From: the human T2T-CHM13v2.0 reference genome, Homo sapiens
NCBI RefSeq assembly: GCF_009914755.1
Contig: NC_060933.1
Strand: one strand, 5' to 3'
DNA length: 64,000 bases
Both the position numbers and the translations under genes were made by a program. Of this stretch, positions 1 through 64,000 are shown piece by piece (the stretch's first letter is position 1; each line of letters begins with the position of its first letter). Below the pieces are notes generated by a model. The model made no database searches. It was not told the origin of the DNA and saw only the letters and a program-made list of their open reading frames with translations.

Positions 1-3000
1 GTACAATGGAATGGAATGGAATGGAATGGAATGGAATGGAATGGAATGCCTTCAAATCGAATGGAATGGAAAGGAATGTAATCAACACGAGTGGAATGGA
101 ATGGAATGGAATGGAATGGAATGGAATGATACGGAATAGAATGGAATGCAACGAAATGGAATGGAATGGAATGGAATGGAATGGAATGGAATGGAATCGT
201 TCCGAGTGGAATAGGAGGGAATGTATTCGAGTGGAATGGAAAGGAATGGAATCAACCAGAGTGGAATGGAAGGGAATGGAATGGAATGGAATGCAATGGA
301 ATGGAATCAACCCGAGTACAATGGAATGGAATGGAATGGAATGGAATGGAATGGAATGGAATGGAATGGAATGCAATGGAATGGAATCTTCCGGAATGGA
401 ATGGAATGGAATGGAATGGAATGGAATGGAATGGAGTGGAGTGCAATGGATTCAACTCGATTGCAATGGAATGGAATAGAATGGAATGGAATGGAATGGA
501 ATGCAATGGAATTAAACCGAATAGAATGGAATGGAATGGAATGGAATGGAACAGAACGGAACGGAACAGAACGGAGTGGAAAGGAATGGAATGGAATTGT
601 ATGGAATGGAATAGAATGGTACGGAATAGAAAGGAATGGAAAGAATTGGAATGGAATGGAATGGAATGGAATGGAATGGAATGGAATGGAATCAACCCGA
701 GTGCAATGGAATGGAGTGGAATGCAATGGAATGGAATGGAATGGAACAACCCGAATGGAATGGAATGTAATGGAGAGTAAGGGAGTTGAACAGAATCTAT
801 CCGAATGTAATGGAATGGAAAGGAATGGAATGGAATGGAATGGAATGGAATGGAATGGAATGCAATGCAATGGAATGGAATCAACCCGAGTACAAAGGAA
901 CAGAATGTAATGTAATGTAATGGAATGGAATGGAATGGAATGGAATGGAATGGAATCAACCCGAGTGCAATGGAATGGAGAGGAATGGAATGCAATGGAA
1001 TGGAAACTACCCGAATGGAATGGAATGTAATGGAGTGTAAGGGAATTGAATAGAATCAATCCGAATGGAATGGAATGGAATAGAACGGAATGTAATGTAA
1101 TGGAATGGAATGGAATCAACCTGAGTGCAGGGGAATGGAATGGAATGGAATGCAATGGAATGGAATCATCCGGAATGGAATGGAATGGAATGCAATGGAA
1201 TGGAATGGAATGGAATCAACCCGAGTGCAATGGAATGGAGTGAAATGGAATGGAATGGAATGGAGACAACCAGAATGGATTGGAATATAATGGAGTGTAA
1301 GGGAATTGAATAGAATAAATCTGAATGTAATGAAATGGAATGGAACGGAATGGAATGGAATGGAATGGAATGGAATGGAATGCAATGGAATGGAATCAAC
1401 CCGAGGGCAATCGAATGGAATCGAATGGAATGGAATGCAATGGAATGGATTCAACTTGAATGGAATGGAAAGAATGGAATCAACACGAGTGGAATGGCAT
1501 GGATTGGAATGGAATGGAATGGAATCAACCCGAGTATAGGGGAATGGAATGGAATGGAATGCAATGGAATGGAATCATCCGTAATGGAATGGAAAGGAAT
1601 GGAATGGAATGGAATGGAATGGAATCAACTCGATTGCAATCGAATGGAATGGAATGGAATTAACCCGAATAGACAGGAATGGAATGGAATGGAACGGAAC
1701 GGAATGGAATGGAATGGAACGGAAAGGAAGGGAATGGAATGGAATAGAATGGAATGGAATGGAATCAACGCGAGTGCAGGGGAATGGAATGGAATGGAAT
1801 GCAATGGAATGGAATCTTCCGGAATGGAATGGAATGGAATGGAATGGAATGGAATTGAATGGAATCAACCCGAGTGCAATGGAATGAAGTGGAATGGAAT
1901 GGAATGGAATGGAACAACCCGAATGGAATGGAATGTAATGGAGAGTAAGGGAGTTGAATAGAATCAATCCGAATGTAATGGAATGGAATGGAACGGAATG
2001 GAATTGAATGGAATGGAATGGAATGCAATGGAATGGAATCAACCCGAGTGCAATGGAATGGAGAGGAATGGAATGGAATGCAATGGAAACTACCCAAATG
2101 GAATGTAATGGAGTGTAAGGGAATTGAATAGAATCAATCTGAATGTAGTGGAATGGAATGGAACGGAATGGAATGGAATGGAATGGAATGGAATGGAATG
2201 GAATGCAATGGAATGGAATCAACCCGAGTGCAATCAAATGGAATCGAATGGAATGGAATGCAATGGAATGGATTCAACTTGAATGGAATGGAAAGAATGG
2301 AATCAACACGAGTGGAATGGCATGGATTGGAATGGAATGGAATGGAATGGAATGGAATGGAATGGAATGGAATCAACCCGAGTGCAGGGGAATGTAATGG
2401 AACGGAATGCAATGGAATGGAATCATCAGGAATGGAATGGAATGGAATTGAATGGAATGGAATGGAATGGAATCAACCCGAGTGCAATGGAATGGAGTGG
2501 AATGGAATGGAATGGAATGGAACAACGCGAATGGAATGGAATGTAATGGAGAGTTATGGAGTTGAATAGAATCAATCCGAATGTAATGGAATGGAACGGA
2601 ATGGAATGGAATGGAATGAAATGGAATGGAATGGAATGGAATGGAATGCAATGGAATGGAATCAACCCGAGTACAATGGAACGGAATGGAATGGAATGGA
2701 ATGGCATGGAATGCAATGGAATGGAATGGAATGGAATGGAATGGAATCAACCCGAGAGCAATGGAATGGAGAGGAATGGAATGGAATGGAATGGAAACTA
2801 CCCGAATGGAATGGAATGTAATGGAGTGTCAGGGAATTGAGTAGAATCAATCCGAATGGAATGGAATGGAATGGAACGGAATGTAATGGAATGGAATGGA
2901 ATGGAATGGAATCAACACGAGTGCAGGGGAATGGAATGGAAAGGAATGCAATGGAATGGAATCATCCGGAATGGAATGGAATGGAATGCAATGGAATGGA

Positions 3001-6000
3001 ATGGAATGGAATCAACCCGAGTGCAATGGAATGGAGTGAAATGGAATGGAATGGAATGGAAACAACCAGAATGGATTGGAATATAATGGAGTGTAAGGGA
3101 ATTGAATAGAATCGATGTGAATGTAATGAAAGGGAAAGGAACGGAATGGAATGGAATGGAATGGAATGGAATGGAATGGAATGGAATGCAATGGAATGGA
3201 ATCAACCCGAGTGCAATCGAATGGAATCGAATGGAATGGAATGCAATGGAATGGATCCAACTTGAATGGAATGGAAAGAATGGAATCAACACGAGTGGAA
3301 TGGCATGGATTGGAATGGAATGGAATGGAATCAACCCGAGTACAGGGGAATGGAATGGAATGGAATGCAATGGAATGGAATCATCCGTAATGGAATGGAA
3401 AGGAATGGAATGGAATGGAATGGAATGGAATGGAATGGAATCAACTCGATTGCAATCGAATGGAATGGAATGGAATTAACCCGAATAGAATGGAATGGAA
3501 TGGAATGGAACGGAACGGAATGGAATGGAATGGAACGGAACGGAACGGAATTGAATGGAATGGAATGGAATGGAATGGAATAAACGCGAGTGCAGGGGAA
3601 TGGAATGGAATGGAATGCAATGGAATGGAATCTTCCGGAATGGAATGGAATGGAATGGAATGAAATGCAATGGATTCAACTCGATTGCAATGGAATGGAA
3701 TAGAATGGAATGGAATGGAATGGAATGGAATTAACCCGAATAGAATGGAATGGAATGGAACGGAATGGAATGGAATGGAATGGAATGGAATGGAATGGAA
3801 TGGAATGGAATGGTATGAAATGGAATGGAATGGTACGGAATAGAATGGAATGGAACGAATTGTAATGGAATGGAATTGAATAGAATGGAATGGAATGGAA
3901 TGGAATCAACGCGAGTGCAGGGGAATGTAATGGAACGGAATGCAATGGAATGGAATCATCCGGAATGGAATGGAATGGAATGGAATGGAATGGAATGGAA
4001 TGGAATCAACCCGAGTGCAATGGAATGGAGTGGAATGGAATGGAATGGAATGGAACAACCCGAATGGAATGGAATGTAATGGACAGTAAGGGAGTTGAAT
4101 AGAATCAATCTGAATGTAATGGAATGGAATGCAACGGAATGGAATGGAATGGAATGGAATGGAATGCAATGGAATGGAATCAACCCGAGTACAATGGAAT
4201 GGAATGGAATGGAATGGAATGGAATGAAATGGAATGGAATGGAATGGAATGATACGGAAAAGAATGGAATGGAACGAAATGGAATGGAATGGAATGGAAT
4301 GGAATGGAATGGAATCGTTCCGAGTGGAATAGGAGGGAATGTATTCGAGTGGAATGGAAAGGAATAGAATCAACCAGAGTGGAATGGAACGGAATGGAAT
4401 GGAATAGAAACTAATAGAATGAAATCAACCCGAGTGGAATGGAATGGAAAGGACTGGAATGGAATGGAATGGAATGGAATCAACTCAATTGTAATGGAAT
4501 GGAATGGAATGGAATGGAATTAACCTGAATACAATGCAATGGAATGGAATGGAACGGAATGGAGAGGAATGGAATGGAATCAACCCGAGTGCAGGGGAAT
4601 GGAATGGAATGGAAAGCAATGGAATGGAATCATCCGGAATGGAATGGAATGGAATGGAATGCAAAGCAATGGAATCAACTCGATTGCAATGGAATGGAAT
4701 GGAATGGAAAGGAATACATTGGAATCAACCCGAGTGGAATGGAATGGAAAGGACTGGAATGGAGTGGAATGGAATGGAATGCAATGGAATGGAATCAACT
4801 CGATTGGAATGGAATGGAATGGAATTGAATGGAATTAACCCGAATAGAATGCAATGGAATGGAATGGAACGGAACGGAATGGAATGGAATGGAATGGAAT
4901 GGAATGGAATGGAAACAACCCGACTGCAGGGGAATGGAATGGAATGGAATGGAATGCAATGGAATGGATTCAACTTGAATGGAATGGAAAGAATGGAATC
5001 AACACGAGTGGAATGGCATGGATTGGAATGGAATGGAATGGAATCAACCCGAGTACAGGGGAATGGAATGGAATGGAATGCAATGGAATGGAATCATCCG
5101 TAATGGAATGGAAAGGAATGGAATGGAATGGAGTGGAATGGAATGGAATGGAATCAACTCGTTGGCAATCGAATGGAATGGAATGGAATTAACCCGAATA
5201 GAATGGAATGGAATGGAATGGAACGGAACGGAACGGAACGGAACGGAAAGGAATGGAATAGAATGGAATGGAATGGAATGGAATGTAATCAACGCGAATG
5301 CAGGGGAATGGAATGGAATGGAATGCAATGGAATGGAATCTTCCGGAATGGAATGGAATGGAATGGAATGGAATGGAATGGAATAAACCCGAGTGCAATG
5401 GAATGGAGTGGAATGGAATGGAATGGAATGGAACAACCCGAATGGAATGGAATGTAATGGAGAGTAAGGGAGTTGAATAGAATCAATCCGAATGTAATGG
5501 AATGGAATGGAACGGAATGGAATTGAATGGTATGGAATGGAATGCAATGGAATGGAATCAACCCGAGTGCAATGGAATGGAGAGGAATGGAATGGAGTGG
5601 AATGGAAACTACCCGAATGGAATGGAATGAAGTGGAGTGTAAGGGAATTGAATAGAATCAATCCGAATGTAATGGAATGGAATGGAACGGAATGGAATGG
5701 AATGGAATGGAATGGAATGGAATGGAATGGAATGCAATGGAATGGAATCAACCCGAGTGCAATCGAATGGAATCGAATGGAATGGAATGCAATGGAATGG
5801 ATTCAACTTGAATGGAATGGAAAGAATGGAATCAACACGAGTGGAATGGCATGGATTGGAATGGAATGGAATGGAATCAACCCGAGTACAGGGGAATGGA
5901 ATGGAATGGAATGCAATGGAATGGAATCATCCGTAATGGAATGGAAAGGAAAGGAATGGAATGGAATGGAATGGAATGGAATGGAATCAACTCGATTGCA

Positions 6001-6410
6001 ATCGAATGGAATGGAATGGAATTAACCGGAATAGAATGGAATGCAATGGAATGGAACGGAATGGAATGGAATGGAAGGGAATGGAATCAACACGAGTGCA
6101 GGGAAATGGAATGGAATGGAATGCAATGGAATGGAATCATCCGGAATGGAATGGAATGGAATGGAACGGAATGCAATGGAATGGAATCATCCAGAATGGA
6201 ATGGAATGGAATGGAATGGAATCAAACCGAGTGCAATGGAATGGAGTGAAATGGAATGGAATGGAATGGAAACAACCAGAATGGATTGGAATATAATGGA
6301 GTGTAAGGGAATTGAATAGAATCAATCTGAATGTAATGAAATGGAATGGAATGGAATGGAAAGGAATGGAATCGAATGGAATGGAATGGAATGGAATCAA
6401 CCCGAGTGCA
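1..6410 (+). repeat. HSat3 sub-domain, A-type modules (first block)
   Basis: Seen: markers GAGAGTAAGGGAGTTGAA, AAACTACCCGAA, TTCAACTTGAATGGAATGGAAAGAATGG, ATCTTCCGG, and ACAACCAGAATGGATTGGAATATAA (~1266, ~3062, ~6272). Confidence 0.75.
383..397. promoter_or_regulatory. Perfect three-unit heat shock element (representative of ~13 left-arm copies)
   Basis: Seen: GGAATCTTCCGGAAT matches nGAAnnTTCnnGAAn, the established HSF1 trimer consensus. Binding here is not shown. Confidence 0.55.
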
Positions 6411-9400
6411 ATGGAATGGTTTCGAATGGAATGGAATGGAGTGGAATGGATTCAACCCGAATGGAATGGAAAGGAATGGAATCAACCCGAGTGGAATCGC
6501 ATGGAATGCAATGGAATGGAATGGAATGGAATGGAATGGAATGGAATGGAATGGAATCAAGTAGATTGCAATGGAATGGAATGGAATGGAATGGAACGGA
6601 TTGGAATGGAATGGAATGGAATGGAATGGAATTAAATGGAATGGAATGGAATGGAAGAAACCCGAGTGCAGGGGAATGGAATGGAATGGAATGCAATGGA
6701 ATGGAATGGAATGGAATGGAATGGAATGGAATGGAATGGAATGGAATGGAATCAACCCGAGTGGAATGGCATGGAATGGAATGCAATGGAATGGCATGGA
6801 ATGGAATCAACTCGAGTGGAAAGGAATGGAATGGAATGGAATGGAATGGAATGAAATCAACTCGAGTGGAATGGAATGGAACGGAATGGATTGGAATGGA
6901 TTGCAATGGAATGAAATGCAATGGAATGGAATGGCATCAATCATTCCGAGTGGAATGGAACGGAATGTAACGGAGTGGAAAGAAGGGAATGGAATCAACC
7001 CGAGTGGAATGCAAGGCAATGGAATGGAATGGAAAGGAATGGAATGGAATCAACTCAATTGCAATGGAATGGAATGGAATGGAATGGAATGGAACGGAAC
7101 GGAATGGAATGGAATGGAATGGAATGGAATGGAATGGAATGGAATGGAATCAACGCGAATGCAGGGGAATGGAATGGAATGGAATGCAATGGAATGGGAT
7201 CATCCGGAATGGAATGGAATGGAATGGAATGGAATCAACTCGATTTCAATGGAATGGAATGGAATAGACTGGAATGGAATTAACACGAATAGAATGGAAT
7301 GGAATGGAATGGAATGGAATTAAACCGAATAGAATGGAATGGATTGGAATTGAACGGAATGTAACGGAATGGAATGGAATGGAATGGAATGGAATGGTAT
7401 GGAATGGAATGGAATGGAATCATCTCGATTGTAATGGAATGGAATGGAATGGAATGGAGTGCAATGGAATGGAATGGAATGGAATGGAGTGCAATGGAAT
7501 GGAATGGAATGGAATGGAATTAACCCGAATACAATGGAATGGAATGGAATGGAGTGGAATGGAATGGAATCAACCCAAGTGCACAGGAATGGAATGGAAT
7601 GGAATGCAATGGAATGGAATCATCCGGAATGGAATGGAACGGAATGGAATGCAAAACAATTCAATCAACTCGATTGCAATGGAATGGAATGGAATGTATA
7701 TGAATAGAATGGAATCAACCCGAGCGGAATGGAATGGAAAGGACTGGAATGGAGTGGAATGGAATGGAACGGAATGGAATGGAATCAACTCGATTGGAAT
7801 GGAGTGCAATGGAATTTGAATGGAATGGAATGGAATGGAATGGAATGGAATTTACCCGAATAGAATGGAATGGAATGGAAAGGAATGGAACGGAATGGAA
7901 TGGAATGGAATGGAATGGAATGGAATGGAATGGAATGGAATCAACCCGACTGCACGGGAATGGAATGGAATGCAATGCAATGGAATGGAATCATCCGGAA
8001 CGGAATGGAATGGAATGGAATGGAATCAACTCGATTGCAATGGAATGGAATGGAATGGAATGGAATGGAATGGAATGGAATGGAGTGGAATGGAATGGAA
8101 TTAACACGAATAGAATGGAATGGAATGGAATGGAAAGGAATGGAAGGGAATGGAATGGAATGTAATCAACCCGAGTGCAGGGGAATGGAATGGAATTGAA
8201 TGCAATGGAATGGAATCATCCGGAATGCAATGGAATGGAATGGAATGGAATGGAATGGAATCAACTCGATTTCAATGGAATGGAATGTAATAGAATGGAA
8301 TGGAATTAACACGAATAGAATGGAATGGAATGGAATGGAATGGAACGGAAAGGAATGGAATGGAATGGAATGGAATCAACCCAAGTGCAGGGGAATGGAA
8401 TGGAATGTAATTCAATGGAATGGAATCATCCGGAATGGAATGGAATGGAATGGAATGGAACGGAATGGAACGGAATGGAATGGAATGGAATGGAATGGAA
8501 TGGAATGGAATGGAATGGAATGGTATGGAATGGAATGGAATGGAATCAACTCGATTGTAATGGAATGGAATGGAATGGAATGGAATGGAATGGAATTAAC
8601 CCAAATACAATGGAATGGAATGGAATGGAACGGAATGGAGTGGAATGGAATGGAATCAACCCGAGTGCAGGGGAATGGAATGGAATGGAATGCAATGGAA
8701 TGGAATCATCCGGAATGGAATGGAATGGAATGGAATGCAAAACAATGGAATCAACTCGATTGCAATGGAATGGAATGGAATGGAAATGAATAAAATGGAA
8801 TCAACCCGAGTGGAATGGAATGGAAAGGACTGGAATGGAGTGGAATGGAATGGAAAGGAATGGAATGGAATCAACTCGATTGGAATGGAGTGGAATGGAA
8901 TTTGAATGGAATGGAATGGAATGGAGTTGACCTGAATAGAATGGAATGGAATGGAATGGAATGGAACGGAATGGAATGGAATGGAATGGAATGGAATGGA
9001 ATGGAATGGAATGGAATGGAATGGAATGGAATCAACCCGACTGCACGGGAATGGAATGGAATGGAATGCAATGGAATGGAATCATCCGGAATGGAATAGA
9101 ATGGAATGGAATGGAATGGAATGCAATGGAATGGAATCATCCGGAATGGAATAGAATGGAATGGAATGGAATGGAATGGAAACATCCCGAATGGAATGGA
9201 ATGTATTGGAGTGTAAGGGAATTGAATAGAATCAGTCTCAATGTAATGGAAGGGAATGGAATGAAATGGAATGGAATGGAATGCAATGGAATGGAATCAA
9301 ACCGAGTGCAATGGAATGGATTCGAATGGAATGGAATGGAATGGAATGGATTCAACAAGAATGGAATGGAAAGGAATGGAATCAACCCGAGTGTAATGGC

Positions 9401-12400
9401 GTGGAATGGAATGGAATGGAATGGGATGGAATGGAATGGTACGGAATAGAATGGAATGGAATGAAATGGAATGGAATGGAATGGAATGGAATGGAATGGA
9501 ATGGAATGGTATCAACTCGATTGCAATGGAATGGAATGGAATGGAAAGGAATAGAATGGAATCAACCCCACTGGAATGGAATGGAAAGGACTGGAATGGA
9601 CTGGAATGGAATGGAATGGAATGGAATCAAATCGATTGGAATGCAATGGAATGGAATGGAATGGAGTCGAATCAACTAGATTGCAATGGAATGGAATGGA
9701 ACGGAATGGAATGGAATGGAATGGAATGGAATAGAATTTACCCGAATAGAATGGAATGGAATGGAATGGAACGGAATGTAATGGAATGAAATGGAATGGA
9801 ATCAACCCGAGTGCAGGGGAATGGAATGGAATGGAATGTCATGGAATGCAATCATCCGGAATGGAATGGAATGGAATGGAATGGAGTGGAATGGAATGGA
9901 ATGGAATCAACTCGATTGCAATGGAGTGGAATGGAATGGAAAGGAATGGAAGGGAATGGAATGGAATGTAATCAACCCGAGTGCAGGGGAATGGAATGGA
10001 ATGGAATGCAATGGAATGGAATCATCCAGAATGGAATGGAATGGAATGGAATGGAATGCAATCAACCCGATGCAATGGAATGGAGTGGAATGGAATGGAA
10101 TGGAATGGAAACATCCCGAATGGAATGTAATGTAATGGAGTGTAAGGGAATTGAATAGAATAAATCCGAATGTAATGGAATGGAATGGAATGAAATGGAA
10201 TGGAATGGAATGGAATGGAATCAACACGAGTGCAATGGAATGGAATGGAATGGAAAGGAATGGAATGGAATGGATTCAACAAGAATGGAATGGAAAGGAA
10301 TGGAATCAACCCGAGTGTAATGGCATGGAATGGAATGGAATGGAATGGAATGGGATGGAATGGAATGGTACGGAATAGAATGGAATGGAATGAAATGGAA
10401 TGGAATGGAATTTAATGGAATGGAATGGAATGAACCCGTGTGCAATGGAATGGAATGGAATGGAATGGAATGTATTCAACTCGAATGGAATCAACTCGAT
10501 TGCAATGGAAAGGAATGGAATGGAAAGGAATAGAATGGAATCAACCCAAGTGGAATGGAAAGGAAAGGACTGGAATGGAGTGGAATGGAATGGAATGGAA
10601 TGGAATCAAATCGATTGGAATGGAATGGAAAGGAATGGAATGGAATGGAATGGAATGGAATCAACTCGATTGGAATGGAATGGAATGGAATGGAATGGAA
10701 TGGAATTAACCTGAATAGAATGGAATGGAATGGAATGGAACGGAATGTAATGGAATGAAATGGAATGGAATCAATACGAGTGCAGGGGAATGGAATGGAA
10801 TGGAATGCAATGGAATGCAATCATCCGGAATGGAATGGAATGGAATGGAATGGAATGGAATGGAATGGAATGGAATGGAATGGAATCAACTCGATTGCAA
10901 TGGAGTGGAATGGAATGGAAAGGAATGGAAGGGAATGGAATGGAATGTAATCAATCCGAATGCAGGGGAATGGAATGGAATGGAATGCAATGGAATGGAA
11001 TCATCCGGAATGGAATGGATTGGAATGGAATGCAATCAACCCGATGCAATGGAATGGAGTGGAATGGAATGGAATGGAATGGAATGGAAACATCCCGAAT
11101 GGAATGGAATGTAATGGAGTGTAAGGGAATTGAATAGAATCAATCCGAATGTAATGGAATGGAAAGGAATGAAATGGAATGGAATGGAATGGAATGGAAT
11201 CAACCCGAGTGCAATGGAATGGATTCGAATGGAATGGAATGGAATGGAATGGATTCAACAAGAATGGAATGCAAAGGAATGGAATCAACCCGAGTGTAAT
11301 GGCATGGAATGGAATGGAATCGAATGCAATGGGATGGAATGGAATGGAATGGAATGGAATGGGATGGAATGGAATGGTACGGAATAGAATGGAATGGAAT
11401 GAAATGGAATGGAATGGAATTTAATGGAATGGAATGGAATGAACCCGTGTGCAATGTAATAGAATGAAATGGAATGGAATGGATTCAACTCGAATGGAAT
11501 CAACTCGATTGCAATGGAATGGATTGGAATGGAAAGGAATAGAATGGAATCAACCAGAGTGGAATGGAATGCAAAGGACTGGAATGGAGTGGAATGGAAT
11601 GGAATGGAATGGAATGGAATCAACTCGATTGGAATGGAATGGAATGGAATGGAATGGAATTAACCAGAATACAATGGAATGGAATGGAATGGAATGGAAT
11701 GGAACGGAACGGAATGGAGTGGAATGGAATGGAATGGAATGGAATCAACCCGACTGCACGGGAATGGAATGGAATGGAATGCAATGGAATGGAATCATCC
11801 GGAACGGAATGGAATGGAATGGAATGGAATCAACTCGATTGCAATGGAATGGAATGAAATGGAATGGAATGGAATGGAATGGAGTTGAATGGAATGGAAT
11901 TAACCCGAATAGAATGGAATGGAATGGAATGGTAAGGAATGGAAGGGAATGGAATGGAATATAATCAACCCGAGTGCAGGGGAATGGAATGGAATTGAAT
12001 GCAATGGAACGGAATCATACGGAATGGAATGGAATGGAATGGAATGGAATGGAATGATCCCGATGCAATGGAATGGAATGGAATGGAATGGAATGGAATG
12101 GAATGGAATGGAAACATCCCGAATGGAATGGAATGTAATGGAGTGTAAGGCAATTGAATAGAATCAGTCCGAATGAAATGGAAGGGAATGGAATGAAATG
12201 GAATGGAATGGAATGGAATCGATCAAACCGAGTGCAATGGAATGGATTCGAATGGAATGGAATGGATTCGAATATAATGGAATGGAATGGAATGGATTCA
12301 ACAAGAATGGAATGGAAAGGAATGGAATCAACCCGAGTGTAATGGCATGGAATGGAATGGAATGGAACGGGATGGAATGGAATGGTACGGAATAGAATGG

Positions 12401-13975
12401 AATGGAATGAAATGGAATGGAATGGAATGGAATGGAATGGAATGGAATGAACCCGTGTGCAATGGAATGGAATGGAATGGAATGGAATGGATTCAACTCG
12501 AAAGGAATCAACTCGATTGCAATGGAATGGAATGGAATGGAAAGGAATAGACTGGAATCAACCCGAGTGGAATGGAATGGAAAGGACTGGAATGGAGTGG
12601 AATGGAATGGAATGGAATGGAATCAAATCGATTGGAATGGAATGGAATGGAATGGAATGGAATGGAATCAACTCGATTGCAATGGAATGGAATGGAATGG
12701 AATTTTAATGGAATGGAATGGAATTAACTCGAATAGAATGGAATGGAATGGAATGGAACGGAATGTAATGGAATGAAATGGAATGGAATCAACCCGAGTG
12801 CAGGGGAATGGAATGGAATGGAATGCAATGGAATGCAATCATCCGGAATGGAATGGAATGGAATGGAATGGAATGGAATGGAATGGAATCAACTCGATTG
12901 CAATGGAGTGGAATGGAATGGAAACGAATGGAAGGGAATGGAATGGAATTTAATCAACCCGAGTGCAGGGGAATGGAATGGAATGGAATGCAATGGAATG
13001 GAATCATCCGGAATGGAATGGAATGGAATGGAATGCAATCAACCCAATGCAATGGAATGGAGTGGAATGGAATGGAATGGAATGGAATGGAAACATCCCG
13101 AATGGAATGGAATGTAATGGAGTGTAAGGGAATTGAATAGAATCAATCCGAATGTAATGGAATGGAATGGAATGAAATGGAATGGAGTGGAATGGAATGG
13201 AATCAACCCGAGTGCAATGGAATGGATTCGAATGGAATGGAATGGAATGGAATGGATTCAACAAGAATGGAATGGAAAGGAATGGAATCAACCCGAGTGT
13301 AATGGCATGGAATGGAATGGAATGGAATGGAATGGGATGGAATGGAATGGTACGGAATAGAATGGAATGGAATGGAATGGAATGAAATGGAGTGGAATGG
13401 AATTTAATGGAATGGAATGGAATGAACCTGTGTGCAATGTAATGGAATGGAATGGAATGGAATGGATTCAACTCGAATGGAATCAACCCGATTGCAATGG
13501 AATGGAATGGAATGGAAAGGAATAGAAAGGAATAAACCCGAGTGGAATGGAATGGAAAAGACTGGAATGGAGTGGAATGGAATGGAATGGAATTAACCCG
13601 AATAGAATGGAATGGAACGGAATGGAACGGAATGGAATGGAATGGAATGGAATGGATTCAACCCGAGTGCAGGGGAATGGAATGGAATGGAATGCAATGG
13701 AATGGAATCATCCGGAATGGAATGGAATTGAATGGAATGGAATGGAATGCAATGGAATCAACTCGATTTCAATGGAATGGAATGGAATAGAATGGAATGG
13801 AATTAACACGAATAGAATGGAATGGAATTGAATGGAATGGAATGGAACGGAAAGGAATGGAATGGAATGGAATGGAATCAACCCAAGTGCAGGGGAATGG
13901 AATGGAATGGAATTCAATGGAATGGAATCATCCGGAATGGAATAGAATGGAATGGAATGGAATGGAATGGAATGG
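6411..13975 (+). repeat. HSat3 sub-domain, B-type modules with ~1 kb periodicity
   Basis: Seen: AAACATCCCGAA at ~9180, 10109, 11088, 12112, 13090; TTCAACAAGAA at ~9351, 10275, 11254, 12297, 13257; GAACCCGTGTGCA-type at ~10432, 11441, 12449, 13424. The A markers listed for 1-6410 were not seen here. Confidence 0.8.
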
Positions 13976-38489: not shown

Positions 38490-38670
38490 CCATTCCATTC
38501 CATTCCACTCCATTCCATTGCACTCGGGTTGATTCCATTCCATTCCATTCCATTCCATTCCATTCCACTCCATTCCTTTGCACTCGGGTTGATTCCATAC
38601 CATTCCATTCCCTTCCATTCCATTCCACTCCATTCCTTTGCACTCGGGTTGATTCCATTCCATTCCATTC
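38490..38670 (-). repeat. Three tandem copies of a 60-bp unit
   Basis: Seen: CACTCGGGTTGATT at 38521, 38581 and 38641, each preceded by CCACTCCATTCC(A/T)TTG. Confidence 0.85.
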
Positions 38671-49843: not shown

Positions 49844-50062
49844 ATTCCATTCCATTCCATTCCATTCCATTCCATTCCATTCCATTCCATTTCAATCGAG
49901 TTGATTCCATTCCATTCCATTCCATTCCATTCCATTCCATTCCATTCCATTTCAATCGAGTTGATTCCATTCCATTCCATTCCATTCCATTCCATTCCAT
50001 TCCATTCCATTTCAATCGAGTTGATTCCATTCCATTCCATTCCATTCCATTCCATTCCATTC
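49844..50062 (-). repeat. Three identical tandem copies of a 60-bp unit
   Basis: Seen: the 60-mers starting at 49861, 49921 and 49981 are identical, with TTCAATCGAGTTGA at 49891, 49951 and 50011. Confidence 0.92.
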
Positions 50063-50269
50063 AATTCCGAATGGTGTCATTCCATTGCCTTCCATTCCAT
50101 TCCATTCCCCTGCACTCGGGTTGATTCCATTCCATTCCATTCCATTCCATTCCATTCCATTCCATTCCATTCCATTTCGTTCCATTCCATTCTATTCCGT
50201 ACCATTCCATTCCATTCCGTTCCATTCCATTCCATTCCATTCCATTCCATTTCCTTCCATTTCTTTCCA

Positions 50270-53200: not shown

Positions 53201-55100
53201 TTCATTCCATTCCATTCCATTCGAGTCGAACCCATTCCATTCCATTCCATTCCATTCCATTCCATTCCAATCCATTGCACACGGGTTCATTACATTCCAT
53301 TCGATTCCATTCCATTCCATTCCATTTCGTTCCATTCCATTCTATTCGGTACCATTCCATTCCATTCCATTCGGTACCATTCCATTCCATTCCATTCCAA
53401 TCCATTCCATTCCATGCCATTCCACTTGGGTTGATTCCCTTCCTTTCCATTCCATTCGTATTGAATCCATTCCATTCCATTCCATTCCATTCCATTCCAT
53501 TCCATTCCATTCCTTTCAATTCCATTGCACACGGGTTGGTTCCATTCCATTCCTTTCCGTTCCATTGCGGATGACTCCATTCCATTGCATTCCATTCCAT
53601 TCCATTCCCCTGCACTCGGGTTCATTACCTTCCGTTCCATTTACTTCCATTCCATTCCATTCCATTCTATTCGGGTTAATTCCATTCCATTCCATTCCAT
53701 TCCATTCCATTCCATTCCATTCCATTCCATTCCATTGCAATCGAGTTGATTCCATTCCATTCCATTCAATTCCGGATGATTCCATTCCATTGCCTTCAAT
53801 TCCATTCCATTCCCCTGCACTCGGGTTGATTCCATTCCATTCCATTCCATTCCACTCCATTCCATTCCATTTCATTCCATTCCATTTCGTTCCTTTCCAT
53901 TCTATTCCGTACCATTCCATTCCATTCCATTCCATTCCATTCCATTCCATGCCATTCCACTCGGGTTGATTCCATTCCTTTCCATTCCATTCGAGTTGAA
54001 TCCATTCCAATCCATTCCATTCCATTCGATTCCATTCCATTGCACACGGGTTCATTCCATTCCATTCCATTCCTTTCCATTCCATTCCATTCCATTTCGT
54101 TCCATTCCATTATATTCCATACCATTCCATTCCGTTCCATTCCATTCCATTCCACTCCACTCCATACCATTCCACTCGGGTTTATTCCATTCCTTTCCAT
54201 TCCATTCGGGTTGAATCCATTCCATTCCATTCCATTCCATTCGATTCCATTACATTGCACTCGGGTTGATTCCATTCCATTCCATTCCATTCCATTCCAC
54301 TCCATTCCATGCCATTCCACGCGGGTTTATTCCATTCCTTTCCATTCCATTCGTGTTGAATCCATTCCATTCCATTCCATTCCATTCGATTCCATTACAC
54401 TGCACTCGGGTTGATTCCATTCCATTCCATTCCATTCCATTTCATTCCATTCCATTCCATTCCATTCCATTCCATTCCATGCCATTCCACTCGTGTTGAT
54501 TCCATTCCTTTGCATTCCATTCGTGTTGAACCCATTCCATTCCATTCCATTCCATTGCACACGGGTTCATTCCATTCCATTCCATTCCATTCCATTCCAT
54601 TCCATTCCATTCCGTTCCATTCCATTCCATTCCATTCCATTCCATTCCATTTCGTTCCATTCCATTCTATTCTGTACCATTCCATTCCATTCCATTCCAC
54701 TCCATTCCATGCCATTCCACTCGGGTTTATTCCATTCCTTTTCATTCCATTTGGGTTGAATCCATTCCATTCCATTCCATTCCTTTCGATTCCATTATAT
54801 TGCACACGGGTTGATTCCATTCCATTCCATTCCATTCCATTCAGGATGACTCCATTCCATTGCATTCCATTCCATTCCATTCCCCTGCACTCGGGTTCAT
54901 TACATTCCATTCCATTCCCATCCACTCCATTCCATTCCATTCCATTCCATTTCAATCGAGTTGATTCCATTCCATTCCATTCCATTCCATTCAATTCCGG
55001 ATGATTCCATTCCATTGACTTCCATTCCACTCCATTCCCCTGCACTCGGGTTGATTCCATTCCATTCCATTCCATTCCATTCCATTCCATTCCATTCCAT
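50270..55100 (-). repeat. Tandem duplication of a ~2.5 kb unit
   Basis: Seen: TCTATTAGGGTTAAT at 50301/52801, TAGACTCC at 50521/53026, TCAGGATGACTCC at 52411/54841, TTCCCATCCACTCC at ~52485/54915. Confidence 0.85.
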
Positions 55101-55539
55101 TCCATTCCATTACGTTCCATTCCACTCTATTCCGTACCATTCCATTCCATTCCTTTCCATTCCAATCCATGCTATTCCACTCGGGTTGATTCCATTCCTT
55201 TCCATTCCATTCGAGTTGAATCCATTCCATTCCATTCCATTCCATTCGATTCCATTCCATTGCACACGGGTTCATTCCATTCCATTCCATTCCATTCCAT
55301 TCCATTCCATTCCATTCCATTTAGTTCCATTCCATTCTATTCCATACCATTCCATTCCATTCCATTCCATTCCACTCCATTCCATGCTATTCCTCTCGGG
55401 TTTATTCCATTCCTTTCCATTCCATTCGGATTGAATCCATTCCTTTCCATTCAATTCCATTCCACTCGATTCCATTACATTGCACTCGTGTTGTTTCCAT
55501 TCCATTCCATTCCATTCCATTTCATTCCATTCCATTCCA

Positions 55540-56630
55540 TTCCATTCCATTCCATTCCATTCCATTCCATTCCATGCCATTCCACTCGGGTTGATTCCAT
55601 TCCTTTCCATTCCATTCGAGTTGAAACCATTCCATTCCATTCCATTCCATTCTATTCCATTCCATTCCATTCCATTCCAATCCATTGCACACGGGTTCAT
55701 TCCATTCCATTCCATTCCATTCCATTCCATTCCATTCCATTCCATTTTGTTCCATTCCATTCTATTCCGTACCATTCCATTCCATTCCATTCCATTCCAT
55801 TCCATGCCATTCCACTCGGTTTTTTCCATTCCTTTCCATTCCATTCGGGTTGAATCCATTCCTTTCCATTCCATTCCGTTCAATTCCATTCCATTGCACT
55901 CGGGTTGATTCCATTCCATTCCATGCCATTCCATTTCATTCCGTTCCATTCCATTCCATTACATTCGGATTGATTCTTTTCAATTCCCTTACACTCCATT
56001 ACATTCCATTCCATTCGGGTAGTTTCCGTTCCATTCCATTCCATTCCACTCCATTTCATTGCACTCGGGTTGATAGATTCCATTCCATTGCATTCCATTC
56101 CATTCCATTCCATTCCATTCCATTCCATTCCATTCCATGCCATTCCACTCGGGTTGATTCCATTCCTTTCCATTCCATTCGAGTTGAAACCATTCCATTC
56201 CATTCCATTCCATTCTATTCCATTCCATTCCAATCCATTGCACACGGGTTCATTCCATTCCTTTCCATTCCATTCCATTCCATTCCATTTCGTTCCATTC
56301 CATTCTATTCCGTACCATTCCATTCCATTCCATTCCATTCCATTCCATGCCATTCCACTCGGTTTTTTCCATTCCTTTCCATTCCATTCGGGTTGAATCC
56401 ATTCCTTTCCATTCCATTCCGTTCAATTCCATTCCATTGCACTCGGGTTGATTCCATTCCATTCCATGCCATTCCATTTCATTCCGTTCCATTCCATTCC
56501 ATTACATTCGGATTGATTCTTTTCAATTCCCTTACACTCCATTACATTCCATTCCATTCGGGTAGTTTCCGTTCCATTCCATTCCATTCCACTCCATTGC
56601 ATTGCACTCGGGTTGATAGATTCCATTCCA
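55540..56630 (-). repeat. Tandem duplication, ~543-bp offset
   Basis: Seen: ACTCGGTTTTTTCC at ~55814/56357, GAGTTGAAACC at ~55618/56181, GGGTTGATAGATT at ~56067/56610. Confidence 0.8.
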
Positions 56631-59600
56631 TTGCATTCCATTCCATTCCATTCCATTCCGGATGAATCCATTCCATTGCATTCCATTCCATTCCATTCCC
56701 CTGCACTCGGGTTGATTCCATTCCATTGCATTCCATTCCATTCCGTTCCATTCCATTCCATTCCATTCCATTCTGTTCAGGTTAATTCCATTCCATTCCA
56801 TTCCATTCCATTCCAGTCCAGTCCATTCCATTCCATTCCATTGCAATCGAGTTGTTTCCATTGCATTCCATTCCATTCCATTCCATTCCATTGCATTCCA
56901 TTGCATTCCATTCCCCTGCACTCAGGTTGATTCCATTCCATTCCATTCCATTCCATTCCATTCCATTCCGGATGATTCCATTCCATTGCCTTCCATTCCA
57001 CTCCATTCCCCTGCACTCGGGTTGATTCCATTCCATTCCATTCTATTCCATTCCATTCCATTCCATTCCATTCCATTTCGTTCCATTCCACTCTATTGCG
57101 TACCATTCCATTCCATTCCTTTCCATTCCAATCCATGCTATTCCACTCGGGTTGATTCCATTCCTTTCCATTCCATTCGAGTTGAATCCATTCCATTCCA
57201 TTCCATTCCATTCGATTCCATTCCATTGCACACGTGTTCATTCCATTCCATTCCATTCCATTCAATTCCATTTAGTTCCATTCCATTCTATTCCATACCA
57301 TTCCATTCCATTCCATTCCATTCCACTCCATTCCATGCTATTCCTCTCGGGTTTATTCCATTCCTTTCCATTCCATTCGGGTTGAATCCATTCCATTCCA
57401 TTTAATTCCATTCCACTCGATTCCATTACTTTGCACTCGTGTTGTTTCCATTCCATTCCATTCCATTCCATTTCATTCTATTCCATTCCATTCCATTCCA
57501 TTCCATTCCATTCCATGCCATTCCACTCGGGTTGATTCCATTCCTTTCCATTCCATTCGAGTTGAAACCATTCCATTCCATTCCATTCCATTCCATTCCA
57601 TTCCATTCCAATCCATTGCACACGGGTTCATTCCATTCCATTCCATTCCATTCCATTCCATTCCATTCCATTCCATTTCTTTCCATTCCATTCTATTCCT
57701 TACCATTCCATTCCATTCCATTCCATTCCATGCCATTCCACTCGGGTTTATTCCATTCCTTTCCATTCCATTCGGGTTGAATCCATTCCTTTCCATTCCA
57801 TTCCGTTCAATTCCAATCCATTGCACTCGGGTTGATTCCATTCCATTCCATGCCATTCCATTTCATTCCGTTCCATTCCATTCCATTACATTCGGATTGA
57901 TTCTTTTCAATTCCCTTACACTTCATTACATTCCATTCCATTCGGGTAGTTTCCGTTCCATTCCATTCCATTCCACTCCATTGCATTGCACTCGGGTTGA
58001 TTGATTCCATTCCATTGCATTCCATTCCATTCCATTCCATTCCGGATGAATCCATTCCATTGCATTCCATTCCATTCCATTCCCCTGCACTCGGGTTGAT
58101 TCCATTCCATTCCATTCCATTCCATTCCGTTCCATTCCATTCCATTCCATTCCATTCTGTTCAGGTTAATTCCATTCCATTCCATTCCATTCCATTCCAT
58201 TGCAATCGAGTTGTTTCCATTGCATTCCATTCCATTCCATTCCATTGCATTCCATTGCATTCCATTCCCCTGCACTCAGGTTGATTCCATTCCATTCCAT
58301 TCCATTCCATTCCATTCCATTCCATTCTATTCGCGTTAATTCCATTCCATTCCATTCCATTACATTCCATTGCAATCGACTTGATTCCATTCCATTCCAT
58401 TCCATTCCATTCCATTCAATTCAAGTCCTTTCCATTCCATTCCACTCGTGTTTATTCCATTTTATTAGTTTCCATTCCAATCCTTTCCCTTCCATTCCAC
58501 TCTGGTTGATTCCATTCCTTTCCATTCCACTCGAATTCATTCCCTTCTATTCCACTCGGAATGATTCCATTCCATTCCGTTCCATTCCATTCCATTCGAT
58601 TCCATTTCCTACCATTGCATTCTATTCCGTACCATTCCATTCCATTCCATTCCATGCCATTCCACTCTGGTTGATTCCATTGCTTTCCATTCCATTTGGG
58701 TTGAATCCATTCCATTCCATTCCATTCCATTCCATTCCATTCCGTTCCATTCAGTTCCATTACATTCGGATTGATTCTTTTTAATTCCCTCAGACTCCAT
58801 TACATTCCATTCCATTTGGGTACTTTCCATTCCATTCCATTCCACTGCATTATATTGCACTCGGGTTTATTGATTCCATTCCATTGCATTCCATTCCATT
58901 CCATTCCATTCCGGATGATTCCATTCCATTGCATTCCATTCTATTCCATTCCCCTGCACTCGGGTTGATTCCATTCCATTCCATTCCATTCCATTCCATT
59001 CCGTTCCGTTCCATTCCATTCCATTCCTTTCTGTTCAGGTTAATTCCATTCCATTCCATTCCCTTCCATTCCATTCCATTCCATTCCATTGCAATCGAAT
59101 TGATTCCATTGCATTCCATTTCATTCCATTCCATTGCATTCCATTCCATTCCTATCTCCTGCCCTCAGGTTGATTCCATTCCATTCCATTCCATTCGATT
59201 CCATTCTATTCCATTCCATTCTATTCGCGGTAATTCCATTCCATTCCATTCCATTACCTTCCATTGCAATCGAGTTGATTCCATTCCATTCCGTTCCTTT
59301 CCATTCCATTCCATTCAAGTCCTTTCCATTCCATTCCAGTCGTGTTGATTCCATTTTATTAGTTTCCATTCCATTCCATTCCCTTCCATTCCAATCTGGT
59401 TGATTCCATTCCTTTCCATTCCACTCGAATACATTCCCTTCTATTCCACTCGGAATGATTCCATTCCATTCCGTTCCATTCCATTCCATTCCATTCCATT
59501 TCTTTCCATTCCATTCTATTCCGTACCATTCCATTCCATTCCATTCCATTCCATTCCATTCCATTCCATTCCATTCCATTCCATGCCATTCCACTCGGGT

Positions 59601-59809
59601 TGTTTCCATTGCTTTCCATTCCATTTGGGTTGAATCCATTCCATTCCATTCCATTCCATTCCATTCCATTCCATTCCATTCAATTGCACTAGGTTTGATT
59701 CCATTCCACTGCATTCCATTCCATTCCATTTCATTCCATTCCACTCCATTCCATTCCATTCCCCCGCACTCGGGTTCATTCCATTCCATTGCATTTACTT
59801 CCATTCCAT

Positions 59810-62800
59810 TCCATTCCATTCCATTCCATTCCATTAGACTCCATTCCATGCCATTCCACTCGGTTTTATTCCATTCGTTTCCATTCCATTCGGGTTGAAT
59901 CCATTGCATTCCATTCCATTCGATTCCATTACATTGCACTCGTGTTGTTTCCATTCCATTCCATTCCATTCCATTCCATTCCATTCCATTCCATGCCATT
60001 CCACTCGGGTTGATTTCATTCCATTCCGTTCCATTCGAGTCGAACCCATTCCATTCCATTCCATTCCATTCCATTCCATTCCATTCCAATCCATTGCACA
60101 CGGGTTCATTCCATTCCATTCCATTCCATTCCATTCCATTCCATTTCGTTCCATTCCATTCTATTCGGTACCATTCCATTCCATTCCATTCGGTACCATT
60201 CCATTCCATTCCATTCCAATCCATTCCATTCCATGCCATTCCACTTGGGTTGATTCCCTTCCTTTCCATTCCATTCGGGTTGAATCCATTCCATTCCATT
60301 CCATTCCATTCCATTCCATTCCATTCCATTCCATTCCTTTCAATTCCATTGCACACGGGTTGGTTCCATTCCATTCCTTTCCGTTCCATTCCGGATGACT
60401 CCATTCCATTGCATTCCATTCCATTCCATTCCCCTGCACTCGGGTTCATTACCTTCCATTCCATTTACTTCCATTCCATTCCATTCCATTCTATTCGGGT
60501 TAATTCCATTCCATTCCATTCTATTCAATTCCATTCCATTCCATTCCATTCCATTCCATTCCATTCCATTGCAATCGAGTTGATTCCATTCCATTCCATT
60601 CAATTCCGGATGATTCCATTCCATTGCCTTCAATTCCATTCCATTCCCCTGCACTCGGGTTGATTCCATTCCATTCCATTCCATTCCATTCCATTCCATT
60701 CCATTCCATTTCATTCCATTCCATTTCGTTCCTTTCCATTCTATTCCGTACCATTCCATTCCATTCCATTCCATTCCATTCCATTCCATTCCATTCCATG
60801 CCATTCCACTCGGGTTGATTCCATTCCTTTCCATTCCATTCGAATTGAATCCATTCCAATCCATTCCATTCCATTCGATTCCATTCCATTGCACACGGGT
60901 TCATTCCATTCCATTCCATTCCATTCCATTCCATTCCATTCCATTCCATTCCATTTCGTTCCATTCCATTATATTCCGTACCATTCCATTCCATTCCATT
61001 CCATTCCATTCCACTCCACTCCATGCCATTCCACTCGGGTTTATTCCATTCCTTTCCATTCCATTCGGGTTGAATCCATTCCATTCCATTCCATTCCATT
61101 CGATTCCATTACATTGCACTCGGGTTGATTCCATTCCATTCCATTCCATTCCATTCCACTCCATTCCATGCCATTCCACGCGGGTTTATTCCATTCCTTT
61201 CCATTCCATTCGTGTTGAATCCATTCCATTCCATTCCATTCCATTCGATTCCATTACACTGCACTCGGGTTGATTCCATTCCATTCCATTCCATTCCATT
61301 TCATTCCATTCCATTCCATTCCATTCCATTCCATTCCATTCCATTCCATTCCATGCCATTCCACTCGTGTTGATTCCATTCCTTTGCATTTCATTCGTGT
61401 TGAACCCATTCCATTCCATTCCATTCCATTGCACACGGGTTCATTCCATTCCATTCCATTCCATTCCAATCCATTCCATTCCATTCCGTTCCATTCCATT
61501 CCATTCCATTCCATTCCATTCCATTTCGTTCCATTCCATTCTATTCTGTACCATTCCATTCCATTCCATTCCACTCCATTCCATGCCATTCAACTCGGGT
61601 TTATTCCATTCCTTTTCATTCCATTTGGGTTGAATCCATTCCATTCCATTCCATTCCTTTCGATTCCATTATATTGCACAGGGGTTGATTCCATTCCATT
61701 CCATTCCGTTCCATTCAGGATGACTCCTTTCCATTGCATTCCATTCCATTCCATTCCCCTGCACTCGGGTTCATTACATTCCATTCCATTCCCATCCACT
61801 CCATTCCATTCCATTCCATTCCATTTCAATCGAGTTGATTCCATTCCATTCCATTCCATTCCATTCCATTCCATTCCGGATGATTCCATTCCATTGCCTT
61901 CCATTCCACTCCATTCCCCTGCACTCGGGTTGATTCCATTCCATTCCATTCCATTCCATTCCATTCCATTCCATTCCATTTCGTTCCATTCCACTCTATT
62001 CCGTACCATTCCATTCCATTCCTTTCCATTCCAATCCATGCTATTCCACTCGGGTTGATTCCATTCCTTTCCATTCCATTCGAGTTGAATCCATTCCATT
62101 CCATTCCATTCCATTCGATTCCATTCCATTGCACACGGGTTCATTTCATTCCATTCCATTCCATTCCATTCCATTCCATTCCATTCCATTTAGTTCCATT
62201 CCATTCTATTCCATACCATTCCATTCCATTCCATTCCATTCCACTCCATTCCATGCTATTCCTCTCGGGTTTATTCCATTCCTTTCCATTCCATTCGGAT
62301 TGAATCCATTCCTTTCCATTCAATTCCATTCCACTCGATTCCATTACATTGCACTCGTGTTGTTTCCATTCCATTCCATTCCATTCCATATCATTCTATT
62401 CCATTCCATTCCATTCCATTCCATTTCATTCTATTCCATTCCATTCCATTCCATTCCATTCCATTCCATTCCATGCCATTACACTCGGGTTGATTCCATT
62501 CCTTTCCATTCCATTGGAGTTGAAACCATTCCATTCCATTCCATTCCATTCTATTCCATTCCATTCCAATCCATTGCACACGGGTTTATTCCATTCCATT
62601 CCATTCCATTCCATTCCATTCCATTCCATTCCATTCCATTTCGTTCCATTCCATTCTATTCCGTACCATTCCATTCCATTCCATTCCATTCCATTCCATT
62701 CCATTCCATGCCATTCCACTCGGTTTTTTCCATTCCTTTCCATTCCATTCGGGTTGAATCCATTCCTTTCCATTCCATTCCGTTCAATTCCATTCCATTG

Positions 62801-63370
62801 CACTCGGGTTGATTCCATTCCATTCCATGCCATTCCATTTCATTCCGTTCCATTCCATTCCATTACATTCGGATTGATTCTTTTCAATTCCCTTACACTC
62901 CATTACATTCCATTCCATTCGGGTAGTTTCCGTTCCATTCCATTCCATTCCACTCCATTGCATTGCACTTGGGTTGATAGATTCCATTCCATTCCATTCC
63001 ATTCCATTCCATTCCATTCCGGATGAATCCCTTCCATTGCATTCCATTCCATTCCATTCCCCTGCACTCGGGTTGATTCCATTCCATTCCATTCCATTCC
63101 ATTCCGTTCCATTCCATTCCATTCCATTCCATTCTGTTCAGGTTAATTCCATTCCATTCCATTCCATTCCATTCCATTCCATTCCATTCCATTCCATTCC
63201 ATTGCAATCGAGTTGTTTCCATTGCATTCCATTCCATTCCATTCCATTGCATTCCATTGCATTCCATTCCCATGCACTCAGGTTGATTCCATTCCATTCC
63301 ATTCCATTCCATTCCATTCCGGATGATTCCATTCCATTGCCTTCCATTCCACTCCATTCCCCTGCACTCG
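59810..63370 (-). repeat. Paralog of ~53000-57020, lacking the 543-bp internal duplication
   Basis: Seen: the same ordered markers TAGACTCC, TCGAGTCGAACCC, paired CGGTACC, ACTTGGGTTG, TTTACTTCC, CACGCGGGTTT, TCAGGATGAC, TTTAGTTCC, CCTCTCGGG, GGTTTTTT, GATAGATT, CTGTTCAGGTT. A further copy starts at ~63568. Confidence 0.8.
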
Positions 63371-64000
63371 GGTTGATTCCATTCCATTCCATTCCATTCC
63401 ATTCCATTCAATTGCACTAGGTTTGATTCCATTCCACTTCATTCCATTCCATTCCATTCCATTCCATTCCACTCCATTCCATTCCATTCCCCCGCACTCG
63501 GGTTCATTCCATTCCATTGCATTTACTTCCATTCCATTCCATTCCATTCCATTCCATTCCATTCCATTAGACTCCATTCCATGCCATTCCACTCGGTTTT
63601 ATTCCGTTCGTTTCCATTCCATTCGGGTTGAATCCATTGCATTCCATTCCATTCGATTCCATTACATTGCACTCGTGTTGTTTCCATTCCATTCCATTCC
63701 ATTCCATTCCATTCCATTCCATGCCATTCCACTCGGGTTGATTTCATTCCATTCCGTTCCATTCGAGTCGAACCCATTCCATTCCATTCCATTCCATTCC
63801 ATTCCATTCCATTCCAATCCATTGCACACGGGTTCATTCCATTCCATTCCATTCCATTCCATTCCATTCCATTCCATTTCGTTCCATTCCATTCTATTCG
63901 GTACCATTCCATTCCATTCCATTCGGTACCATTCCATTCCATTCCATTCCAATCCAATCCATTCCATGCCATTCCACTTGGGTTGATTCCCTTCCTTTCC

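What the first reader, a model, noticed from the sequence alone, without database searches (positions are those of the whole stretch)
1..64000. Candidate system: convergent, HSE-loaded satellite arms able to make giant hairpin or double-stranded RNA
Seen: the G-rich strands of both arms point at the junction, the arms share sub-family modules, and both junction-proximal domains carry many perfect HSEs. Established: HSF1 drives Pol II transcription of mainly G-rich SatIII lncRNA in nuclear stress bodies. Inference: convergent transcription would collide here, and read-through would give RNA whose GGAAU half pairs with its AUUCC half. That makes the locus a possible stress-inducible source of long dsRNA and C-rich SatIII RNA (a substrate for ADAR, Dicer, MDA5 or PKR), or a transcription boundary. 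This is a hypothesis with no expression evidence in the sequence.
Basis: inference. Interest (0 to 1): 0.7.

Follow-up and report, generated by a model that had tools for sequence, protein, structure and literature searches.

The report
Old satellite inversion junction, copied 31-fold
This is a point where a huge repetitive DNA array on human chromosome 9 flips direction; the same flip point occurs at least 31 times in the array, likely copied from one old fold-back accident, and RNA crossing it would fold into a long hairpin, but no such RNA has been shown.

Summary
The strand switch is real, at window 29714/29715. It is one of the >200 inversion breakpoints already reported for chr9 HSat3B5 and beta-satellite arrays.

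It is not unique. The junction 26-mer has 30 matches, all on chr9, plus one tip-altered copy. One divergent junction has 85 copies and a second convergent one 22. So 138 of the 143 switches I mapped belong to three families; I found this in no paper searched.

The junction looks like an old fold-back: a 14-bp tip stem, a 132-nt asymmetric spacer and a ~95%-identical 500-nt mirror.

'HSE-loaded' is not special: exact-motif density near junctions is 0.44-0.55/kb against 0.50/kb in an unrelated array stretch.

Read-through RNA would form a very stable hairpin. Published C-rich SatIII RNA is below about 1/10,000 of G-rich, roughly 100-fold under free read-through, although that assay may miss hairpins.

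Verdict: a passive, amplified structural scar. The dsRNA idea is unproven but testable with a family k-mer, not a locus-specific one.

The parts
1..29714 (+). HSat3 arm, G-rich (GGAAT)n strand on +, pointing at the junction
29715..64000 (-). HSat3 arm, G-rich strand on -, pointing at the junction; next mapped divergent switch at chr9:57127759, about 24 kb past the window end
29703..29728 (+). Junction core 26-mer ('family A'): 30 genome matches at up to 2 mismatches (28 exact; 18 +, 12 -), all chr9 52.9-76.4 Mb; reversed control 0
29684..29728 (.). Tip hairpin: 14-bp stem (29684-29697 with 29715-29728), 17-nt loop; perfect in 16 of 20 copies
29583..29714 (+). Asymmetric spacer of about 132 nt with no partner in the right arm (117-137 nt in 16 of 20 copies; 0-17 in the other 4)
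29103..30214 (.). Junction-proximal mirror: about 29103-29582 pairs with 29715-30214 (456 matches, 24 mismatches)
28570..28582 (+). Nearest perfect three-unit HSE on the left arm (1.1 kb from the junction)
   Evidence: consensus recalled
30655..30667 (-). Nearest perfect three-unit HSE on the right arm (0.9 kb from the junction)
   Evidence: consensus recalled
17119..48907 (.). HSE-bearing sub-domain, 23 of the window's 27 perfect HSEs; density is array-average
27417..27422 (+). Last AATAAA before the junction on +; none follows in the 34 kb of C-rich sequence on +
31535..31540 (-). Last AATAAA before the junction on -; none follows in the C-rich sequence on -

Best explanation
This is a strand-switch junction of the chr9 HSat3 array that occurs in at least 31 near-identical copies; it likely arose once as a fold-back (inverted duplication with a short loop and a ~120-nt one-sided deletion) and was likely spread passively by the duplications that expanded the array, with no dedicated function. 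SHOWN: the switch, the copy number and both orientations; one divergent junction with 85 copies and a second convergent one with 22; near-strict alternation of divergent and convergent junctions; 10 of the 30 core copies pair up at ~8.7 or ~10.6 Mb offsets; flanks stay collinear for only ~0.3-3 kb; HSE density is array-average. INFERRED: single origin, fold-back mechanism, turnover of the flanks by unequal exchange, and that under heat shock G-rich transcripts mostly end or are degraded before making stable junction-spanning RNA.
For: Copy number. Other families and alternation: (138 of 143 mapped switches fall in three families). Megabase offsets fit in kind the multi-megabase HSat3 duplication of CHM13 9qh+ (10.1101/2021.05.26.445798, passages). 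Fold-back signature: the right arm's first 400 nt match the left arm just upstream of the spacer better than all but 7-9 of 357 control windows in each of 6 copies tested; junctions B, C and D show no such mirror. Flank turnover: left arm collinear to ~2 kb in about 15 of 19 copies, right arm in about 7-8 of 19. No HSE excess. Switch number scales with array length across assemblies (r=0.90) and is called a by-product of expansion (10.64898/2026.07.22.740206, passages). C-rich SatIII RNA in stressed HeLa cells is below the G-rich level of unstressed cells while G-rich rises about 10^4-fold (PMC2241877, passages).
Against: Paralogous units elsewhere match the right-arm tip better than the mirror does (500-nt score 407 and 378 vs 363), so recombination with a nearby sister unit is not excluded. 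The arms differ by ~5% while copies differ by ~1-2%, which needs an old event before amplification. The control pool came only from junction flanks and the window (194 kb), not the whole array. Lack of function is not shown: the tip is almost invariant among copies, no AATAAA lies within 1.8 kb upstream of the junction or on either C-rich strand, and heat-shock reads map across the whole array (PMC11622622, passages).
Confidence: 0.72

Rival explanations
1. Passive DNA scar, but with a real by-product: HSF1-driven G-rich transcripts run through the 58 or more convergent junctions and form long hairpin RNA in nuclear stress bodies, supplying the small stress-coupled C-rich SatIII fraction.
For: Predicted hairpin of -666 kcal/mol per 920 nt with helices of 84, 52, 41 and 34 bp. 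HSEs lie about 1 kb from the junction on both arms. No AATAAA on the C-rich strands. C-rich RNA rises about 10-fold in parallel with G-rich, with no known direct HSF1 control. HSATII gives nuclear dsRNA foci with ADAR1 (reviews, passages).
Against: Free read-through would involve 0.8-4.3% of the array, against a measured C/G ratio below about 1e-4. No C-rich FISH signal. Reviews call HSat3 transcription unidirectional. No paper was returned. Caveat (my inference): RT priming and FISH on a strand locked in a hairpin could under-report it.
Confidence: 0.17
2. The junction formed by ectopic recombination or template switching between two neighbouring sister units of the same rare module cassette rather than by literal fold-back, and that cassette is a recurrent break site.
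For: Sister units at window ~600-1400 and ~2400-3300 match the right-arm tip better than the mirror. The C-rich arms of junctions B and C end in the same cassette (5 of 357 and 24 of 357 control windows score as high).
Against: The matching unit sits exactly at the mirror position, which about 2% of control windows would give. One deletion brings both the 14-bp tip stem and the 500-nt mirror into register. B and C may simply be deletion derivatives of A.
Confidence: 0.25
3. The junctions are a selected element, a transcription boundary or regulated dsRNA source kept for function.
For: Near-invariant tip across 20 copies and high copy number.
Against: No HSE enrichment. About 4-5% uncompensated arm mismatch near the tip in most copies. 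Several copies have lost the mirror or tip (L022, L023, L027, L028). The non-palindromic divergent junction is even more amplified (85 copies). The array varies 0.76-20.69 Mb among people.
Confidence: 0.05
4. Assembly artefact (chimeric fold-back reads).
For: Fold-back chimeras are a known long-read artefact (recalled), and HSat arrays show coverage biases.
Against: 31 copies with private variants and a 132-nt asymmetric spacer; hundreds of switches in chr9 HSat3 across independent assemblies.
Confidence: 0.01

Closest known systems
Inversion breakpoints (strand switches) of the chr9 HSat3B5 array (Altemose et al., 10.1101/2021.07.12.452052; 10.64898/2026.07.22.740206)
   Same: A G-rich to C-rich switch inside the chr9 9q12 HSat3 array; one of >200 reported for this array and beta-satellite arrays together; number scales with array size.
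   Different: The passages I saw count switches but do not group them by sequence. Here 138 of 143 mapped switches are copies of three junctions, and this one has fold-back anatomy. The supplements (Tables S6-7 of the first preprint) and the Science and review versions could not be read.
HSF1-induced SatIII (HSat3) lncRNA of nuclear stress bodies (PMC2241877, PMC9032817, PMC10505914)
   Same: Same repeat, same array, scattered perfect HSEs.
   Different: Reported RNA is overwhelmingly G-rich, 2 to more than 5 kb; junction-spanning or hairpin forms are not described in what I read.
DUX4-induced bidirectional HSATII dsRNA foci with ADAR1 and EIF4A3 (Shadle et al. 2019; seen only through two reviews)
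   Same: Pericentric satellite RNA able to form long nuclear duplexes; what the read-through RNA would work like.
   Different: Different satellite and activator; duplex attributed to bidirectional transcription, not read-through of an inversion; dsRNA was shown there and is only predicted here.
Fold-back inverted duplications stabilised by a central asymmetric deletion (recalled general mechanism, no call)
   Same: Inverted arms in register, short loop, one-sided deletion near the tip.
   Different: Here inside a simple satellite, mirror eroded beyond ~0.5-0.8 kb, and amplified 31-fold.

Membership tests
chr9 HSat3B5 strand switch | (GGAAT)n/(ATTCC)n HSat3 sequence on both sides with opposite polarity | tested here: met
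chr9 HSat3B5 strand switch | Lies in the chr9 9q12 HSat3 array | tested here: met
   Window is G000:C9:57040001-57104000; the hsat3_9_3(B5) view spans 52.7-73.0 Mb in PMC11622622
chr9 HSat3B5 strand switch | Subfamily B5 by the published k-mer classifier | not testable with these tools
   Classifier not available; assigned by position only
Fold-back inverted duplication | Arms are inverted copies in register from the tip | tested here: met
   456 of 480 aligned positions match over 500 nt; top 7-9 of 357 control windows
Fold-back inverted duplication | Mirror partner is the closest relative of the inverted arm | tested here: not met
   Sister units score 407 and 378 against 363 for the mirror
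Fold-back inverted duplication | Short loop or spacer with microhomology | tested here: inconclusive
   14-bp stem, 17-nt loop and 132-nt spacer, but short matches are cheap in a pentamer repeat
Fold-back inverted duplication | Long-range (multi-kb) mirror symmetry | tested here: not met
   No mirror diagonal among 102 clusters of uniquely shared 18-mers; mirror not best beyond the tip except at about 2 kb and a tie at 20 kb, of 10 distances
HSF1-driven SatIII transcription unit | Perfect HSEs present | tested here: met
   27 in the window
HSF1-driven SatIII transcription unit | HSEs enriched at the junction over the array background | tested here: not met
   0.44-0.55/kb against 0.50/kb
HSF1-driven SatIII transcription unit | HSF1 binding and transcription at this locus | not testable with these tools
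   No expression data; array-wide only
Satellite dsRNA source (HSATII-like) | RNA can form duplexes of 30 bp or more | tested here: met
   Predicted fold only
Satellite dsRNA source (HSATII-like) | Both strands or read-through RNA detected; J2 or ADAR association | not testable with these tools
   Literature read points to very little C-rich RNA

The most novel reading that the evidence does not exclude
The chr9 HSat3 array is built from a few ancestral inversion junctions amplified into about 90 or more convergent head-to-head points, and heat shock reads through them to make kilobase hairpin SatIII RNA that strand-specific RT-PCR and FISH have missed because it is self-paired: a built-in, copy-number-variable dsRNA source inside nuclear stress bodies.
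Probability: 0.15. Interest if true: 0.75.

Novelty: new member of a known kind. Interest (0 to 1): 0.38.

Why it matters
The '>200 inversions' of chr9 HSat3 need not be hundreds of events: most mapped ones are copies of three junctions. These give rare, chr9-only sequence landmarks inside a 27.6-Mb array that is otherwise hard to align, usable to date its expansion and compare haplotypes. One 26-mer reports on 30 convergent junctions at once, so the open question of where stress-induced C-rich SatIII RNA comes from, and whether SatIII makes dsRNA, becomes a simple read search. If read-through is found, 9qh size variation would scale an endogenous dsRNA load.

Tried and rejected
Giant palindrome across the window: rejected. 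HSE enrichment at junctions: rejected against the array baseline; the in-window p=0.008 is post hoc and reflects HSE-poor sub-domains. Locus-specific k-mers: impossible. A third large convergent family: junction C has 1 copy; 30 other divergent-divergent gaps were not examined. A generic gapped pattern for further divergent junctions gave 10 matches, none on chr9. Mirror symmetry at junctions B, C and D: absent. An evenly spaced 200-kb sample of the array was not obtained, so the HSE baseline rests on pattern counts and one 202-kb stretch, and the chromosome split of the 12,415 matches is unknown. L028 was left out of the 20-copy tallies because it lacks the core 26-mer. Earlier scan findings were not available. 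Not held: the 'classical revival' review, the Science version of Altemose 2022 and Shadle 2019. Searches for prior description listed no paper whose title, abstract start or passages read described junction families or junction-derived SatIII hairpins; most subscription papers and bioRxiv supplements are not searched.
Full report
1. Observation. The window is pure HSat3. GGAAT runs at 100-127 per kb up to 29.7 kb and ATTCC at 105-123 per kb after it, with a single switch at 29714/29715. The arms share sub-family modules to the same degree as two halves of one arm (24-mers shared 64-69% between arms, 59-74% within); the longest exact inter-arm match is 236 nt. There are 27 perfect three-unit HSEs (consensus recalled), 23 of them in 17119-48907.

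2. The HSE claim. In-window enrichment is seen at 10 kb (15 vs 8.4, p=0.008) and weakly at 15 kb (p=0.03), not at 2 or 5 kb. The commonest HSE 16-mer has 12,415 exact matches genome-wide, almost equally on both strands; the first 100 listed span 202 kb of chr9 (0.50/kb on + only). The same motif shifted one base gives 22 in the window, 11 within 10 kb of the junction and 87 in 200 kb around 20 junction copies; perfect HSEs there number 101, with only 1 in the last kb of the left arm. HSF1 motifs are known to occupy sub-regions of HSat3 arrays (10.1101/2024.10.22.616524, passages). The junction is therefore ordinary in HSE load; the window simply contains two HSE-poor sub-domains.

3. The junction is a family. 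A 301-nt junction query gave 31 near-full-length chr9 matches with only 40 of 1764 candidates scored. The 26-nt core has 30 matches at up to 2 mismatches, 28 exact, 18 + and 12 -, all on chr9 between 52.9 and 76.4 Mb, control 0; a 31st copy has an altered tip (L028). The copy at 67.69 Mb is identical over 3296 aligned nt apart from one 5-nt indel. Ten of the 30 core copies pair with another at about 8.72-8.77 Mb (six) or 10.62-10.65 Mb (four) (positions), leaving about 21 distinct copies; a multi-megabase HSat3 duplication is described for CHM13 (10.1101/2021.05.26.445798, passages). I fetched 10 kb around 20 copies other than the window's, avoiding the 10 duplicates. Flanks stay collinear with the window for about 2 kb on the left in about 15 of 19, and on the right in about 7-8 of 19.

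4. The rest of the array. A divergent junction found in L010 has 85 matches, 80 exact, all chr9. A second convergent junction found between two such copies has 22 matches, 20 exact. A generic gapped pattern recovered family A and 5 further convergent sites within the mapped span, plus sites at 48.7 and 76.55-76.57 Mb and on other chromosomes that I left out of the map. Ordering the 143 junctions shows alternation, with 31 divergent-divergent neighbours (untyped convergent junctions must lie between) and 4 convergent-convergent ones. The one gap I opened held a single-copy junction. So 138 of 143 mapped switches descend from three sequences (single origin inferred). Print: over 200 breakpoints in chr9 HSat3B5 and beta-satellite arrays (10.1101/2021.07.12.452052, passages); switch number correlates with array length, r=0.90, read as a by-product of expansion (10.64898/2026.07.22.740206, passages). 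Neither set of passages groups switches by sequence; their supplements were not visible and may bear on this.

5. Origin. The first 500 nt of the right arm are the reverse complement of 29103-29582 (456 matches, 24 mismatches), leaving a 132-nt unpaired spacer (117-137 nt in 16 of 20 copies). At the tip is a 14-bp stem with a 17-nt loop, perfect in 16 of 20 copies. One deletion of about 120 nt from the right arm puts both in register, which is what a fold-back with a stabilising central deletion would leave (inference; mechanism recalled). Only 7-9 of 357 control windows score as well as the mirror in each of six copies tested, and junctions B, C and D have no mirror. Against this, sister units elsewhere in the window match the right tip better (407 and 378 vs 363), and no long-range mirror survives. 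I put fold-back at about 0.6-0.65 and exchange between neighbouring sister units at about 0.25.

6. The RNA hypothesis. A read-through RNA would fold strongly: -666 kcal/mol over 920 nt, helices of 84, 52, 41 and 34 bp, against -95 and -72 for single-arm RNA and -489 to -593 for 8 random sense/antisense chimeras (1301 nt gives -994). Most of that stability is thus generic to any HSat3 sense/antisense pair. AATAAA recurs about every 2 kb on the G-rich strands, the last ones 2.3 and 1.8 kb before the junction, and never on the C-rich strands, so an HSE-proximal start would meet no canonical poly(A) hexamer (function of the hexamers untested). With 58-118 convergent junctions (58 typed, 89 with the gaps, 118 an assumed upper figure) and 2-5 kb transcripts, 0.8-4.3% of the 27.6-Mb array lies within reach of a junction. 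In HeLa cells, C-rich RNA after stress stays below the G-rich level of unstressed cells while G-rich rises about 10^4-fold, and C-rich probes gave no FISH signal; the authors note their primers may see only a subset (PMC2241877, passages). That is about 100-fold below free read-through. A self-paired strand could escape RT priming and FISH (my inference), so the bound is not airtight. Reviews report no evidence of RNAi on SatIII or of direct HSF1 control of antisense SatIII (PMC9032817, passages) and call transcription unidirectional (PMC10505914, passages). Heat-shock reads cover the whole chr9 array, with no strand result in the passages seen (PMC11622622). The dsRNA precedent is HSATII under DUX4 (reviews only). 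Searches listed no paper showing SatIII hairpin RNA.

7. Verdict. Real, but a known kind of feature, and not a special locus. What is added here is that the switches are a few amplified junctions, that this one has fold-back anatomy, and that a single chr9-only k-mer can test read-through at 30 sites. Interest 0.38; the hairpin-RNA reading has probability about 0.15 and would deserve about 0.75.

Noticed in passing
L010:1611-1638 (G000:C9:52954492) and 84 other chr9 sites: One divergent (C-rich to G-rich) junction is present in 85 copies, 80 exact, non-palindromic; it accounts for all the divergent switches I mapped.
   Followed up: partly
L029:~1335 (G000:C9:70855020): Second convergent junction family, 22 matches on chr9, with an AATAAA right at the end of its G-rich arm.
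   Followed up: partly
L029:1335-1665 and L030:7085-7415: The C-rich arms of junctions B and C end in the module cassette that flanks junction A (5 and 24 of 357 control windows score as high). They may be deletion derivatives of the palindromic junction A, which would mean one ancestral inversion for much of the array.
   Followed up: partly
G000:C9 52.9-76.4 Mb: Junction copies recur at offsets of about 8.7 Mb and 10.6 Mb, suggesting two megabase-scale duplicated blocks rather than one.
   Followed up: no
window 5349-17118 and 48908-64000: Two sub-domains with no perfect HSE; the distal right one has its own long periods (about 2.5 and 6.9 kb) and dense AATAAA on the G-rich strand beyond about 50 kb.
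   Followed up: no
L010 (G000:C9:52954492-52957895) and L029 (70853884-70855049): Very short inverted domains: 3.4 kb and 1.1 kb between a divergent and a convergent junction.
   Followed up: no
G000:C7:58746816-59010684; C13, C14, C15, C21, C22 short arms: Repeated strand-switch junction sequences also occur in satellite on chr7 (convergent) and shared across the five acrocentrics (divergent).
   Followed up: no
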